NCBI GenBank assembly: GCA_964016885.1
Contig: OZ024746.1
Coordinates: forward strand, 41,292,001 to 41,356,000
Source of the DNA: Eledone cirrhosa
Taxonomy: Eukaryota
DNA length: 64,000 bases
Reading direction: 5' to 3'
This document shows positions 17,070-34,811 of the stretch, piece by piece. Each line of letters starts with the position of its first letter. The first letter of the stretch is position 1. The position numbers were made by a program, and so were the translations under genes. The notes beneath the pieces were generated by a model that had not been told where the DNA came from, did no database searches, and saw only the letters and a program-made list of their open reading frames with translations.

Positions 17070-17410
17070 TGGAGGCACATGGCTTAGTGGCTAAAGCATT
17101 GGTCTTGCAATCGAAAGGTTGTGAGTTCAATTCTCAGACCGGGTGATGTGTTGTTTCCTTGAGCAAGACACTTTATTTCACATTGCTCCAGTTTACTCAG
17201 CTGTAGAAATGAGATGATAGGGACTGGGGTCCCTATCATTCCACTGCAAAGTGGTCGTGTAGGTGCCATGGCAAAAAAGCACCCAGCACTCACTGTAAAT
17301 GAGGTTGGTGTTAGGAAGGGCATCCAGCTGTAGAAATCAAGCCAGAATCAGTTCCCGTCCCACCCTTGCAAGCAGGGAAAAAGCGGACGTAAAATGAAAT
17401 GATGATGATG
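17070..17410 (+). mobile_element. tRNA-derived CORE-like SINE (family B) with RTE-derived 3' tail
   Basis: A box tggcttagtgg, B box gagttcaattc, ccttgagcaagacactt core, tail nearly identical to the RTE-A 3'UTR, (GAT)n. Confidence 0.85.
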
Positions 17411-19504: not shown

Positions 19505-22210
19505 TACATACATGCACATACACACATGCCACACATGCCATACACACATGCACACACATGCATATACACACATGCCACACATGCCATACACACATGCACA
19601 CACATGCCATACACACATGCCACACATGCCATACACACATGCACACACATGCCATACACACATGCCACACATGCCATACACACATGCACACACATGCACA
19701 TACACACATGCCACACATGCCATACACACATGCCACACATGCACATACACACATGCCACACATGCCATACACACATGCACACACATGCACATACACACAT
19801 GCCACACATGCCATACACACATGCCACACATGCCATACACACATGCCACACCTGCCATACACACATGCCACACATGCCATACATGCCATACACACATGCA
19901 CACACATGCACATACACACATGCCACACATGCCATACACACATGCACACACATGCACATACACACATGCCACACATGCCATACACACATGCACACACATG
20001 CACATACACACATGCCACACATGCCATACACACATGCCACACATGCACATACACACATGCACACACATGCCATACACACATGCACACACATGCACATACA
20101 CACATGCCACACATGCCATACACACATGCCACACATGCACATACACACATGCCACACATGCCATACACACATGCACACACATGCACATACACACATGCCA
20201 CACATGCCATACACACATGCCACACATGCCATACACACATGCCACACCTGCCATACACACATGCCACACATGCCATACATGCCATACACACATGCACACA
20301 CATGCACATACACACATGCCACACATGCCATACACACATGCACACACATGCACATACACACATGCCACACATGCCATACACACATGCACACACATGCACA
20401 TACACACATGCCACACATGCCATACACACATGCCACACATGCACATACACACATGCACACACATGCCATACACACATGCCACACATGCCATACACACATG
20501 CACACACATGCCATACACACATGCCACACATGCCATACACACATGCCACACATGCCATACACACATGCACACACATGCACATACACACATGCCACACATG
20601 CCATACACACATGCCATACACACATGCACACACATGCACATACACACATGCCACACATGCCATACACACATACCATACACACATGCACACACATGCACAT
20701 ACACACATGCCACACATGCCATACACACATGCCACACATGCCACACATGCCATACACACATGCACACACATGCCATACACACATGCCACACATGCCATAC
20801 ACACATGCCACACATGCCATACACACATGCACACACATGCACACACATGCACATACACACATGCCACACATGCCATACACACATGCACATACACACATGC
20901 CACACATGCCATACACACATGCCATACACACATGCACACACATGCACATACACACATGCCACACATGCCATACACACATGCCACACATGCCATACACACA
21001 TGCCACACATGCCACACATGCCATACACACATGCCACACATGCCATACACACATGCCACACATGCCATACACACATGCACACACATGCCATACACACATG
21101 CACACACATGCACATACACACATGCCACACATGCCATACACACATGCCATACACACATGCACACACATGCACACACACACATGCCACACATGCCATACAC
21201 ACATGCCATACACACATGCACACACATGCACATACACACATGCCACACATGCCATACACACATGCCACACATGCCATACACACATGCCACACATGCCACA
21301 CATGCCATACACACATGCCACACATGCCATACACACATGCCACACATGCCATACACACATGCCACACATGCCATACACACATGCACACACATGCACACAC
21401 ATGCACATACACACATGCCACACATGCCATACACACATGCCATACACACATGCACACACATGCACATACACACATGCCACACATGCCATACACACATGCC
21501 ATACACACATGCACACACATGCACATACACACATGCCACACATGCCATACACACATGCCACACATGCCATACACACATGCCACACATGCCACACATGCCA
21601 TACACACATGCCACACATGCCATACACACATGCCACACATGCACACACATGCCATACACACATGCACACACATGCACATACACACATGCCACACATGCCA
21701 TACACACATGCCATACACACATGCACACACATGCACATACACACATGCCACACATGCCATACACACATGCACACACATGCACATACACACATGCCACACA
21801 TGCCACACATGCCATACACACATGCCACACATGCCACACATGCCATACACACATGCCACACATGCCATACACACATGCACACACATGCACATACACACAT
21901 GCCACACATGCCATACACACATGCACATACACACATGCCACACATGCCATACACACATGCCACACATGCCATACACACATGCACACACATGCACATACAC
22001 ACATGCCATACACACATGCACACACATGCACATACACACATGCCACACATGCCATACACACATGCCATACACACATGCCACACATGCACATACACACATG
22101 CCATACACACATGCACACACATGCACATACACACATGCCACACATGCACACACATGCACACACATGCACATATACACATGCCACACATGCCATACACACA
22201 TGCACACACA
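19505..22210. repeat. Complex satellite of four CATG-terminated words (9, 10, 13 and 14 bp)
   Basis: ccacacatg, cacacacatg, ccatacacacatg and cacatacacacatg in variable order; stop-free in all six frames. Confidence 0.95.
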
Positions 22211-29894: not shown

Positions 29895-31128
<1,234 letters not shown>

Positions 31129-31247
31129 AGGTGAGTTTTATTGTAGTACAATAAAGCAATGCAGATATCGGATAAGAAGCACTCTACAGTTTGTAGGACT
31201 GGAGTATACATAATATAAGATCAAAAGATGGTTAAAGGAGTTCCATG

Positions 31248-31318
31248 TATTTTATTATGCGCATTTCAAAAACAAACATCATCATGCAATAATATTTGTG
31301 TTTTCATCAGATAAAACA
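31248..31318 (-). ncRNA. Type I hammerhead ribozyme (mirror copy)
   Basis: Reverse complement of 31461-31531. Confidence 0.8.
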
Positions 31319-31460
31319 GGAGAACATGATATGAAGGCTAAAAAACACTTGTGGATAGTGCAGTTTTAAATCAACATATGTTGATTTAAAACTGAAAAGA
31401 TATGTTGATTTAAAACTGCACTATCCATAAGTGTTTTTTAGCCTTCATATCATGTTCTCC

Positions 31461-31531
31461 TGTTTTATCTGATGAAAACACAAATATTATTGCATGATGA
31501 TGTTTGTTTTTGAAATGCGCATAATAAAATA
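31461..31531 (+). ncRNA. Type I hammerhead ribozyme
   Basis: tgttttat-CTGATGA-aaacacaaatattatt..atgatgatgtttgttttt-GAAA-tgcgca-TA-ataaaata; palindromic stem III, AUA triplet. Confidence 0.8.
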
Positions 31532-31561
31532 CATGGAACTCCTTTAACCATCTTTTGATCT

Positions 31562-31616
<55 letters not shown>

Positions 31617-31620
31617 TATA

Positions 31621-31694
<74 letters not shown>

Positions 31695-31698
31695 TAAA

Positions 31699-31744
<46 letters not shown>

Positions 31745-32342
31745 ACTTGATCATATTTCTCTATCCCGTTTTCTCCCCCCATAGTTATTATATTTTTATT
31801 ATTATTTGAAAAAATCGGTTTTTTTACATTGTGTTTTCCCCTCCTAATATTCGCTTATATTTCTTTATATATTCTCTATATATTTTTGTATCTTTATTTT
31901 TTTATCTTTATTATTTCCACTTTTATCCTCCTTTATATTTCACCCTATTCTTACTTTTATACCTTATTATAGTGTAATCTTCCCCATGCCTTATTATACA
32001 CTATTAATTATAGATTATTATTATTACTCTTTTTCCATTTCTAATTACCTCAGGTACTTTCTCCTCCATTATATATATATATATATTGTATGCCCTTTGT
32101 GTTTGTGTAGCCTCTGCACACCCTCTGCACCATACTATCGACGCCACCCCATCTATGGTTCAGCTAACCACTCGACTCCCGGGAATGAATATGACCGCAG
32201 CTAGTAAACAAGGACCCACACCCCACCCTCCCACACCAAAATTAGACTTATCGTCCCCTACTTTTGCTCTTTACTCTCTTTACTCTTTGTTCTTGAATGT
32301 TTGGTTGGTAGAGTCCATAACACCAATCAAACCCCTTTTATA

Positions 32343-33250: not shown

Positions 33251-34360
33251 TAAACAAACCATTGGAGCATCGAGTGAGTTGATGTACAATACTCATGCAC
33301 CACGGAACAACTAAATACCACAAGACACAACATATTTACAGATATATACACACACCATACAATGACTATACAAGATACACAACACACACACTCATGCATA
33401 CCCATATATTCACACATATAGCAAAAAATGCATGCACTCACATATGCACACACACACACACACATACCCACACTAAACACACACAGCATAACATCTTTAC
33501 ATAACAAATTCTATGCACACTCACATACAGACCAAAATGCACACACTCATACACAATAAAATACAGTCACACTCACACAAACAAACTCATGCACACATAT
33601 ATATACACACACAAACTCACACACACACACACACATACAGACAAAAACATGCAGTCACATTAATTAATAGACAAATACACAGACACACTAACACACACAC
33701 ACATTTATACACACACACATGTATACAGACACAGCCATGCACACACATTTATAAATACACAAATATACAGACACACAAACACATACACACATATTTTCAC
33801 CCACACTTACACACACACATACACACACATTCATACACACATACATTCACTCACACATGCATTCATATATAAACACATACATAGAAACAGAGTCATTCTG
33901 AAGCATAGAAACTTACATGGCAGAAATAAGAGTAGAGATTGTAAGAATGGAAGAACAATAATGACAAATGATTTAGAAAATTTGTAAGACAGTCATGTTA
34001 ACATTCTTAAATAGAACAGGAAATATCAGAATTCTGTATTCTTACTTTATATTCTTCTCTTTTTATATTTCACATTTCTTTTAATTTATAATATATATCA
34101 AACATATGAACATACATACATGCACACATACATATATACAGTCATATATAGGTACATATCTATCTATCTCTATCTATGTATGTGTGTGTGTATGCATATA
34201 TATATATATATAGATTTTGAGTTTATGTTGGTTGTATACCAACACCTCAGTATGCAGGCTGGAGCACTCGACGAAATGCGCAGGTTGGTTTGGTTACTCC
34301 GGAGTAGTGTAAAATAAAGTTAAATAAAAGTCAAATGATTAAAATTTAGCTTCGTTTATT

Positions 34361-34415
34361 ACTGCTATATATATTTCAGTGACAGCCATCTTTGGCTGTG
34401 ACCTCTTCAGGCAGT
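34361..34415 (-). ncRNA. Type I hammerhead ribozyme (mirror copy)
   Basis: Reverse complement of 34646-34700. Confidence 0.82.
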
Positions 34416-34645
34416 TTGAATTAGTATGGTATAGACAAGTACATGTGTTGTTTAGGTGTATGATATTGTCAATACTCTGATATGCCCAGTTCCTTGCTGG
34501 GTTGTTAATTCACTGGGGAACTGGAGTCATATGACTCCAGTTCCCCAGTGAATTAACAACCCAGCAAGGAACTGGGCATATCAGAGTATTGACAATATCA
34601 TACACCTAAACAACACATGTACTTGTCTATACCATACTAATTCAA

Positions 34646-34700
34646 ACTGCCTGAAGAGGTCACAGCCAAAGATGGCTGTCACTGAAATATATATAGCAGT
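34646..34700 (+). ncRNA. Type I hammerhead ribozyme
   Basis: actgc-CTGAAGA-ggtcacagcca-aaga-tggctgtcact-GAAA-tatata-TA-gcagt, then AATAAA. Confidence 0.82.
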
Positions 34701-34744
34701 AATAAACGAAGCTAAATTTTAATCATTTGACTTTTATTTAACTT

Positions 34745-34811
<67 letters not shown>

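What the first reader, a model, noticed from the sequence alone, without database searches (positions are those of the whole stretch)
31210..31569. Second hammerhead palindrome from a different family, also folding at CATATG
Seen: same architecture as 34310-34751 but unrelated sequence. The centre reads aaatcaaCATATGttgatttaaaactg-aaaag-atatgttgatttaaaactg, a short fold-back followed by a restart. One arm mismatch argues against a read artefact. Inference: two rounds of self-priming at a CATATG micro-palindrome, a direct footprint of the inversion mechanism.
Basis: partly seen in the sequence, partly recalled or inferred. Interest (0 to 1): 0.75.

Follow-up and report, generated by a model that had tools for sequence, protein, structure and literature searches.

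The report
Penelope-like retrotransposon inverted double insertion
The palindrome is one of about 1,500 head-to-head double copies of the end repeat of a Penelope-like retrotransposon sitting in TA microsatellites; its odd centre is likely the scar left where two reverse transcripts met, so it is an ordinary member of a known element class that still says something about how such elements insert.

Summary

It did not arise by fold-back at this locus. Each arm is the terminal repeat (pLTR) of a 3.7-kb retrotransposon. [quoted passage not shown] It also carries the sequence motifs published for the Hydra clade of Penelope-like elements (PLEs).

- **Abundance:** arm sequences occur about 11,000 times in the 3-Gb genome, and about 1,500 sites are short palindromes like this one.
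- **Structure:** all 49 sampled sites carry an 83-nt 'tail' on exactly one side, and 45 of 50 lie in (TA)n.
- **Centres:** they differ between copies (33 versions in 49 sites). This window's version is unique in the genome.
- **Asymmetry:** the tail-less arm almost always runs to the same ATATG. When one arm is shortened, it is the tailed one (17 against 1-2).
- **Shared variants:** the two arms of a copy share their sequence variants.

These patterns fit two reverse transcripts of one short RNA joining at self-complementary ATAT ends. They do not fit one strand priming on itself.

The 'hammerhead' is a motif-level match only; Rfam does not score it. This is a known kind of element, of modest interest.

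The parts
30900..31126 (.). Left (TA)n microsatellite flank, the likely insertion target. TA-rich sequence runs further left to at least 30500.
   Evidence: Read. The repeat families reach 30500. GC is 0.133 for 30001-32000. Flanks are TA-rich in 45 of 50 copies on each side.
31127..31209 (-). The 83-nt 'tail', present on this side only. On the sense (-) strand it ends ...CAATAAAACTCACCTCCTAC next to (TA)n. It holds a 9-bp hairpin (31137-31155) and an AATAAA.
   Evidence: It matches the full-length copy L089 continuously with the left arm (259 nt, 99.2%, 31380-31122). Exactly one tail per palindrome was found in 49 of 49 sampled sites. In full-length copies the tail is followed by about 80 nt and then the ORF start.
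31210..31380 (-). Left arm: a pLTR copy whose sense strand is the - strand (the tailed copy). It runs to the fixed inner end ...CAACATATG.
31381..31399 (.). Private centre TTGATTTAAAACTG + AAAAG. It holds a 14-nt repeat of the start of the right arm and a 5-nt filler ending in G.
   Evidence: filler of 19 nt. The 26-mer across it occurs once in the genome. Similar restarts occur in other copies: L035, L036, L037, L055, L069.
31400..31569 (+). Right arm: a pLTR copy whose sense strand is the + strand, tail-less. It starts exactly at ATATGTTG and ends ...GATCTTATATTAT next to (TA)n.
   Evidence: 175 nt at 98.9% to L089 121-295. One mismatch to the left arm in 146 nt.
31461..31531 (+). Hammerhead-like motif of the right arm. 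Helix I is 31461-31468 / 31524-31531. CUGAUGA is 31469-31475. A long helix II spans 31476-31511. GAAA is 31512-31515. UGCGCA is 31516-31521. The predicted cut lies after UA at 31523. Its mirror image lies on the - strand of the left arm (core at 31310).
   Evidence: RNAfold and motif positions; motif scan. No Rfam hammerhead match. Cleavage was not tested.
31570..31741 (.). Right (TA)n microsatellite flank.
   Evidence: Read.

Best explanation
This palindrome is a head-to-head pair of copies of the roughly 170-nt terminal repeat (pLTR) of a Hydra-clade Penelope-like retrotransposon lying in a (TA)n microsatellite, and it was likely made at insertion, when two reverse transcripts primed from the two cut target strands ran to the 5' end of one short pLTR RNA and joined through their self-complementary ATAT ends.

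Shown:
- The element, its ORF folds, its copy numbers, the one-sided tail, the TA target, the variable centres and the arm asymmetry.

Inferred:
1. The nuclease would cut both strands of (TA)n.
2. One strand would prime at an internal UAUAUUAU site of the RNA and give the tail-less copy. That copy would run off the RNA 5' end at AUAUG, which is probably a capped transcription start.
3. The other strand would prime 83 nt further downstream on the same RNA and give the tailed copy. It would follow behind and sometimes stop early.
4. The two cDNA 3' ends would then pair (ATAT with ATAT, in steps of AT) or be joined after a few untemplated bases, and each would be filled in on the other.

On this reading, in this window one transcript would have run off, added a few bases, recopied the last 14-19 nt and run off again. 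That would be the 'restart'.
For: Identity:
- The arm 28-mer occurs 5606 + and 5659 - times with <= 2 mismatches (reversed control 0).
- Long copies carry an ORF. An intact 809-aa ORF lies at L089:430-2859.
- The RT part models at pLDDT 87.3 and gives 186 PDB matches at E <= 0.001. The top matches are all reverse transcriptases: DRT2, retron, TERT, group II intron, LINE-1 ORF2p, R2.
- The C-terminal part models at pLDDT 89.4 and aligns to the I-TevI GIY-YIG domain at Z 9.3 (rmsd 2.4-2.6 over 89-95 residues) and to T4 EndoII at Z 7.6. Unrelated rows score <= 3.1.
- The published Hydra-clade motifs are present: DKT, CxCX5C, CxxC..E, N..CxH, and no conserved Cys pair inside the GIY-YIG core (criteria read in PMC8557442 section 11).

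Architecture:
- Long pairs are head-to-head 5'-truncated copies with varied truncation points.
- 1500 short palindromic sites exist.
- Exactly one tail was found in 49 of 49 sites.
- Flanks are TA-rich in 45 of 50 copies on each side.

Made anew at each insertion:
- There are 33 different centres in 49 sites, and only 10 are perfect.
- The window's centre is unique.

Fixed RNA end:
- None of the 49 centres extends even a few nt past CATATG, yet many copies extend by hundreds of nt.
- Both families have TTC|ATATG in the long form.
- An extra G sits before the tail-less ATATG in 12 of 50 copies, and an extra A in 0.
- The terminal 8-45 nt are recopied in L035, L036, L037, L055 and L069.
- Overlaps step by AT: the perfect CATATG centre occurs 10 times and CATATATG 4 times.

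Two cDNAs, one RNA:
- The shortened arm is the tailed one (17 against 1-2).
- The arms of one copy differ at a median of 1 in 146 nt, against 7 between copies. 0 of 10,000 permutations reach this.
- In vitro, a PLE protein cleaves and extends both target strands and starts reverse transcription at two internal sites whose spacing equals the tail (PMC11167929, main text read).
Against: - No RNA data support the proposed start at ATATG. No run on record as RNA holds the sequence, and the contigs laid cannot show RNA ends.
- The extra G could be ordinary untemplated addition and not a cap signature.
- The upstream TATA-like stretch is weak in family 1 and absent in family 2.
- Shared variants in both arms could also come from two RNAs of one source locus, or from later gene conversion between arms.
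- The asymmetry count from the 49 sites only sees truncations within 17 nt of the centre. Deeper ones rest on 3 + 5 loci.
- One or two sites go the other way (L045, perhaps L063).
- The window's filler (G)AAAAG is the reverse complement of the CTTTTC that precedes ATATG in the long form. My scheme does not explain this.
- The 24-nt restart could be a later slippage duplication.
- The published in vitro work used a Poseidon-clade element, and there the start sites were not homologous to the target.
Confidence: 0.55

Rival explanations
1. Self-priming: one cDNA (or an antisense transcript) folds back at the CATATG palindrome and copies itself, making the second arm. This is the first reader's reading and the hypothesis printed for Penelope elements in 2013.
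For: Palindromes sit at the inverted junctions in both families. Both arms of a copy share their variants, as a self-copy would. The window's + strand reads naturally as a 14-nt fold-back followed by a restart. The hypothesis is stated in PMC3846280 (passages read).
Against: A copy cannot hold what its template lacks. The arm that always reaches ATATG has no tail, and the shortened arm carries the 83-nt tail (17 against 1-2). Fold-back on one strand predicts two tails or none, yet 49 of 49 sites have exactly one. A perfect palindrome with no loop (10 of 49) cannot form within one molecule.
Confidence: 0.2
2. The short palindrome is itself a non-autonomous element: it is transcribed end to end as a hairpin RNA and copied as a unit.
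For: Copy number is high (1500 sites). Some centre types recur: perfect 10, +AT 4, +C 3, and TTGATATG twice (L044 and L076). HHR-bearing non-autonomous derivatives of PLE repeats are described (abstract of 10.64898/2026.07.22.740005).
Against: There are 33 different centres in 49 sites and the window's is unique. The recurrent types are the simplest AT-step overlaps. The proposed promoter region lies upstream of ATATG in long copies and is absent from the palindrome. A 170-bp perfect RNA hairpin would be a poor template (general knowledge).
Confidence: 0.08
3. The insertion arrived with a simple centre, and the 24-nt restart arose later by replication slippage in the palindrome.
For: The restart is a near-tandem repeat (22 nt at 95%, spacing 24). 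Palindrome centres are known to be unstable (general knowledge). This centre is unique.
Against: The two units differ at the junction bases (C/G, and the AAAAG filler), which plain slippage does not give. Five other sampled copies show recopied ends, several with filler bases (L035, L036, L037, L055, L069), together with extra-base signatures typical of polymerase run-off.
Confidence: 0.2
4. A foldback or MITE-type DNA transposon made of terminal inverted repeats.
For: It has long inverted arms, many copies and a TA-rich target.
Against: The arms are the end repeat of an RT plus GIY-YIG element. The partner arms are 5'-truncated at varied points, up to kilobases. One end has an 83-nt extension. 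No transposase was seen in the long copies examined.
Confidence: 0.02
5. An in-situ inverted duplication of chromosomal DNA, or a sequencing or assembly artefact.
For: It is palindromic in form. I obtained no independent read support for the private centre (searches were unanswered).
Against: About 1500 loci have the same boundaries. The family lies at very high depth in independent runs, and in runs labelled as two other organisms. The structure is the one published for PLE insertions.
Confidence: 0.02

Closest known systems
Hydra clade of Penelope-like elements (Craig et al. 2021, PMC8557442; sections read)
   Same: A single ORF with RT then a C-terminal GIY-YIG nuclease. It has the DKT motif, the CxCX5C linker, CxxC and CxH around the E and N residues, and no CCHH. 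It inserts into (TA)n. A hammerhead-type motif lies in the repeat. Copies are 5'-truncated, with inverted partner copies and a one-sided tail.
   Different: The unit is about 3.7 kb with a 3' untranslated part of about 1 kb (L089: 120 to 3831), against 'generally <3 kb'. The N-terminal motif reads RRLRWT, not RWK. The tail is 83 nt, against the 30-40 bp quoted for PLEs. An N/S/T-rich insert lies between RT and nuclease. The hammerhead-like motif has a long helix II and no G-C at 10.1-11.1. No tree was built, so clade placement rests on motifs.
Penelope/Poseidon insertion architecture and the PAc in vitro system (PMC3846280; PMC11167929)
   Same: Inverted pLTRs joined head to head, with palindromes at the junction. 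An optional tail sits on one side. Targets are AT-rich. Both target strands are cut and extended. There are two internal RT start sites whose spacing equals the tail. A TATA/Inr-like promoter in the pLTR has been proposed.
   Different: It belongs to a different clade. Here the inverted partner seems near-obligatory: none of the 17 loci was a plain solo copy. The proximal start site is TA-like and so homologous to the target, unlike PAc. The ORF starts about 80 nt after the tail, not before it.
Twin priming of LINE-1 (5' inversions); recalled from Ostertag and Kazazian 2001, not read here
   Same: Both target strands would prime reverse transcription on one RNA, and the two cDNAs are joined by microhomology to give an inverted structure.
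   Different: In L1 the second primer anneals inside the RNA, so the inverted piece is internal and only one 3' end is present. Here both arms carry the element's 3' boundary.
Non-LTR retrozymes and minimal dimeric hammerheads of PLEs (PMC4209133, passages read; abstract of 10.64898/2026.07.22.740005)
   Same: Short ORF-less copies of a PLE repeat carrying a type-I hammerhead-like core. Helix III is 2 bp capped by a palindromic 4-nt loop (GCGC here, AUAU in family 2).
   Different: Retrozymes are tandem, head-to-tail arrays thought to move through circular RNA. These copies are head-to-head pairs. Ribozyme activity is untested here, and Rfam models do not score the motif.

Membership tests
Penelope-like elements (PLE), endonuclease-bearing | Reverse transcriptase domain in the single ORF | tested here: met
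   The model of L089 residues 150-560 has pLDDT 87.3. Foldseek gives 186 PDB matches at E <= 0.001, and the top matches are all RTs including TERT. YRDDG is invariant in 48 sequences. Pfam itself gave no hit.
Penelope-like elements (PLE), endonuclease-bearing | GIY-YIG endonuclease fused to the RT | tested here: met
   The model of the last 134 residues has pLDDT 89.4. VIA-align gives I-TevI Z 9.3 and T4 EndoII Z 7.6, with unrelated rows <= 3.1. Foldseek alone was weak (best E 0.2). Y14, Y27, G29, R38, E99 and N112 are invariant.
Penelope-like elements (PLE), endonuclease-bearing | pLTR repeats, 5' truncation, an adjacent inverted 5'-truncated copy, and a tail at one end only | tested here: met
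   L089 has the repeat at 120-378 and again from 3831. Long pairs are head-to-head with varied truncation. One tail was found in 49 of 49 sites.
PLE, Hydra clade | DKT in place of DKG; CxCX5C linker; CxxC and CxH around E and N; no CCHH in the nuclease core | tested here: met
   HSDKTNN and CNCRIKNKC. C93-x-x-C96, E99, N112 and C121-x-H123 are invariant, and no invariant Cys pair lies between the GIY and YIG motifs. Criteria come from PMC8557442 section 11.
PLE, Hydra clade | RWK motif near the N-terminus | tested here: inconclusive
   This family reads RRLRWTAYF. Its homologues read RWK or RWR.
PLE, Hydra clade | Short element (<3 kb) | tested here: not met
   The unit is about 3.7 kb in L089. 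The paper says 'generally', so this is a soft criterion.
PLE, Hydra clade | Insertion into (TA)n | tested here: met
   45 of 50 copies are TA-rich on each flank.
PLE, Hydra clade | Placement inside the clade on an RT/EN tree | not tested
   No reference PLE sequences were on hand. The homologues found carry no clade names.
Hammerhead ribozyme (type I, PLE minimal form) | Core CUGANGA ... GAAA ... UH with helices I, II and III | tested here: met
   Family 1: CUGAUGA at 31469, GAAA at 31512, UA at 31522-31523, and an 8-bp helix I. For family 2 the minimum-energy fold is the hammerhead shape. Helix III is 2 bp plus a palindromic tetraloop, as described in PMC4209133.
Hammerhead ribozyme (type I, PLE minimal form) | G10.1-C11.1 pair closing helix II | tested here: not met
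   It is A-U in family 1 and G-U in family 2 by the fold. The pair is named as highly conserved in PMC4209133.
Hammerhead ribozyme (type I, PLE minimal form) | Score against Rfam hammerhead covariance models | tested here: not met
   No hammerhead family scored at E <= 10 on 501, 581 or 77 nt. None reached gathering score in the window or in four long copies.
Hammerhead ribozyme (type I, PLE minimal form) | Self-cleavage | not testable with these tools
   This needs an in vitro transcript, probably as a dimer.
Foldback / MITE DNA transposon | Terminal inverted repeats bounded by a fixed target duplication, mobilised by a transposase | tested here: not met
   The ends are unequal (83-nt tail). 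The interior of long copies encodes RT/GIY-YIG, not a transposase. A target duplication cannot be read inside (TA)n.

The most novel reading that the evidence does not exclude
The roughly 1,750 natural junctions of these two families record how Penelope-like elements build their inverted repeats. One capped pLTR RNA is copied twice, from an internal start on one cut strand and from a start 83 nt downstream on the other. The two cDNAs pair through an AUAU-derived self-complementary end that also matches the (TA)n target. This would replace the printed self-priming hypothesis and explain the one-sided tail.
Probability: 0.35. Interest if true: 0.6.

Novelty: new member of a known kind. Interest (0 to 1): 0.4.

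Why it matters
For the genome, it means that these 'hammerhead palindromes' are insertions of an abundant retrotransposon. The family looks young: copies are 98-100% alike and at least one ORF is intact. It targets TA microsatellites, so the palindromes are not signs of local DNA instability.

For the field, how Penelope-like elements form inverted repeats and the one-sided tail is an open question. Both papers read here say so (PMC8557442; PMC11167929). The junctions in this genome are numerous and fresh enough to test the models. In my sample they argue against one strand priming on itself and for two cDNAs made from one RNA.

Tried and rejected
- **DNA search in the own genome:** searching with the 270-nt arm found nothing, not even itself, because common words are skipped. 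I used patterns instead.
- **Pfam:** it gave no family for the ORF pieces or for four homologues. A profile search of PDB sequences gave only chance-level rows. The folds were settled by structure prediction instead.
- **Rfam:** no hammerhead in any search. The many microRNA-precursor rows lie below their gathering scores and only reflect a long hairpin.
- **Hammerhead cut site:** I considered it as the source of the fixed inner end and rejected it. The predicted cut (31523/31524) lies about 120 nt from the centre.
- **RNA evidence:** no RNA holder is listed. The four runs laid are contigs and show no molecule ends.
- **Read support for the centre:** a second read-laying request, to check the private centre, did not complete.
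- **Earlier notes of this scan:** none exist for this genome.
- **Whole-window inverted-repeat scan:** it was swamped by TA microsatellites.
- **Filler AAAAG:** I tried several template-switch paths on paper and none is compelling.

Full report
**1. The observation**

The repeat finder gives arms 31205-31382 and 31397-31574 (178 nt, 98% complementary) and a 22-nt near-tandem repeat at the centre (31373-31394 / 31397-31418). As single-stranded DNA the stretch folds at -194.7 kcal/mol against -31.5 +/- 3.8 for shuffles (z -42.6; 0 of 100 shuffles as good). Both sides are long TA microsatellites.

**2. A family, not a local event**

- A 28-mer of the arm occurs 5606 times forward and 5659 times reverse in the 3.0-Gb genome with <= 2 mismatches. 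The reversed control gives 0.
- In the first 100 places listed I counted by hand 11 +/- pairs 41-64 nt apart, one pair 178 nt apart, 14 pairs 0.9-6 kb apart, and 48 places without a listed partner. I saw no -/+ pair, that is, no tail-to-tail pair.
- Aligning the first 17 distinct loci with the window showed three things. The short palindromes share the window's arms. In other copies the arm runs past ...CAACATATG into unique sequence (AAAAGTGGTTTTAG...). An extra segment (GGAGGTGAG...GGAGTATAC, window 31127-31209) is present at one end only.

**3. What the element is**

- The long pairs hold ORFs facing outward from a common centre.
- tblastn with homologues shows each long pair to be two 5'-truncated copies joined head to head, with truncation points anywhere in the ORF.
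- The ORF piece has 264 relatives at E <= 0.001 among 8000 scored candidates (best 2.4e-85). Many of them are about 700 aa long.
- A copy with upstream sequence (L089) holds an intact 809-aa ORF.
- Pfam recognised nothing, so I tested the folds. The RT and GIY-YIG results are given under Best explanation and Membership tests.
- The protein atlas places the ORF next to clusters carrying HTH_animal, GIY-YIG, DUF8422 and RVT_1 labels. I treat this as a lead only.
- RT followed by GIY-YIG defines the endonuclease-bearing Penelope-like elements.
- The motif list printed for the Hydra clade (PMC8557442 section 11) is matched: DKT, CxCX5C, CxxC..E, N..CxH, no CCHH. Exceptions are an RW-T instead of RWK, and a unit of about 3.7 kb where the paper says 'generally <3 kb'. 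I built no tree.

**4. Anatomy of the repeat**

In the sense direction a full copy reads as follows:

...3' untranslated part...CTTTTC | ATATGTTGATTT... arm ...GATCTTATATTAT | GTATAC... tail ...CAATAAAACTCACCTCCTAC | ATTAAC... about 80 nt ... ATG ORF

- The same arm appears again after the ORF and an untranslated part of about 1 kb (L089: 120-378 and from 3831). This is a pLTR.
- Insertions end either after ...CTTATATTAT (tail-less) or after ...CCTCCTAC (tailed), each next to (TA)n.
- The window's left arm plus tail matches L089 over 259 nt at 99.2%. The right arm matches over 175 nt at 98.9%.

**5. The 'hammerhead'**

- Each arm carries CUGAUGA, a long helix II, GAAA, a 2-bp helix III capped by GCGC, then UA, with an 8-bp helix I.
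- Family 2 (34310-34751) has the same plan with different helices, and its minimum-energy fold is the hammerhead shape.
- The short helix III with a palindromic loop is the form described for animal PLE hammerheads, which are thought to work as dimers (PMC4209133).
- Against this, no Rfam hammerhead model scores either motif, and the 10.1-11.1 pair is not G-C.
- I call it hammerhead-like. Activity is untested.

**6. The centres**

- The pattern GTGGATAGTGCAG-N(10-80)-CTGCACTATCCAC finds 1500 sites (control 0).
- I fetched the first 49 distinct sites on contig 1 and turned each so that the tail is on the left.
- All 49 have exactly one tail.
- There are 33 different centres. The perfect ...CAACATATGTTG... 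occurs 10 times, +AT 4 times, CATATCATATG 3 times and its mirror twice. The rest are single or double occurrences with fillers, recopied ends or a shortened arm.
- The window's 26-mer across the centre is unique in the genome.
- No centre extends beyond CATATG into the long-form sequence.
- Family 2 gives the same picture: 248 sites, with arms ending ...GGAGTCATAT(G).
- The contigs of independent runs show the same two sets of joints. Many left positions join to 31397-31400, and 31378 joins to many right positions.

**7. Asymmetry**

- With the tail on the left, the tail-less arm keeps >= 15 of its last 17 nt while the tailed arm keeps <= 6 in 8 sites: L041, L044, L058, L059, L064, L072, L074, L076.
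- In L051 both arms are short, the tailed one more so.
- The reverse holds in L045, and perhaps in L063.
- In the first sample the three clearly unequal copies (L002, L004, L019) have a complete tail-less arm and a shortened tailed arm.
- In family 2 the same holds in 5 of 5 copies (L098, L105, L114, L115, L116). Two copies are solo with a tail (L110, L112) and two are unclear (L092, L113).
- A G precedes the tail-less ATATG in 12 of 50 copies, this window included. An A precedes it in none.
- The two arms of one copy differ at a median of 1 of 146 positions, against 7 between copies. No permutation of 10,000 does as well, over the 40 of 49 copies without an indel shift (an earlier version is).

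**8. Reading**

- A fixed inner end, untemplated bases there and recopied terminal segments are what a reverse transcriptase leaves when it runs off the 5' end of its template. This rests on general knowledge of template jumping, recalled and not read here.
- The shared TTC|ATATG in two otherwise different families resembles an initiator with A as +1. The extra G would fit a copied cap. Both points are inference, and I have no RNA data.
- One tail per insertion, a complete tail-less arm and shared variants are explained if one RNA is copied twice, from the two start sites, on the two cut strands.
- A PLE protein does cut and extend both strands and does use two start sites that bracket the tail in vitro (PMC11167929).
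- In this window, read on the - strand, the tail-less transcript reaches ...CAACATAT, adds C and a few T, recopies CAGTTTTAAATCAACATATG and then meets the tailed arm. I cannot tell these apart, and a later slippage duplication is not excluded.

**9. Verdict**

This is a true palindrome and a routine insertion of a known element class, in a new, abundant and apparently young family.

I searched the held library three times. I found the general architecture and the self-priming hypothesis in print, but no statement of the tail/complete-arm asymmetry. Subscription papers and the supplements of the papers read were not seen.

Noticed in passing
window 34212-34751: This is the second palindrome (family 2). 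Its tail is at 34212-34308 on the left only, and it has a perfect CATATG centre. Genome-wide it has 962 + and 968 - arm matches and 248 short palindromes, with the same spectrum of centres as family 1. The long form reads ...GACCAATGAG...GAATTC|ATATGACTCC.
   Followed up: partly
window 27166 (+ strand): My motif scan found another hammerhead-like core: CTGATGA, a 14-nt helix II, GAAA, CTAGTA, and flanks pairing at 5 of 6 positions. It may belong to a third PLE family.
   Followed up: no
L089 (G000:C3:161784400-161788400) 430-2859: An intact 809-aa ORF of the family, with an N/S/T-rich insert between RT and nuclease. The internal 446 nt have 1401 first-look candidates in the genome, and the 40 that were scored are 98-100% identical. 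The family therefore looks recently active.
   Followed up: partly
L089 1-120: Just upstream of the 5' repeat there are three recopied units of about 25 nt (GTCGAAGxTGTTAATCAATCT...). This is the same kind of stutter as at the palindrome centres.
   Followed up: no
L041 (G000:C1:66691952-66692673) 100-230: A diverged tail end of an older insertion lies tail to tail with a young one in the same (CA)n(TA)n microsatellite. This suggests repeated hits on one target.
   Followed up: no
window 31394-31399: The filler GAAAAG is the reverse complement of the CTTTTC that precedes ATATG in the long form. TGAAAAG also equals the long-form antisense continuation. This is either chance or a clue to a slightly longer template. 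It remains unexplained.
   Followed up: partly
window 31121-31580, runs X4 and X6: Contigs of runs labelled as two other organisms hold the arm and the long-form continuation at low depth, so the family is not confined to one species.
   Followed up: no
window 17080-17137: An Rfam tRNA match at 29.5 bits, just above the gathering score of 29.
   Followed up: no
window 20001-22000: Strongly skewed composition (GC skew -0.64, AT skew +0.48), probably simple sequence.
   Followed up: no
L093 (G000:C1:11242137-11245169): A run of N directly upstream of a family-2 arm, so that copy could not be classified.
   Followed up: no
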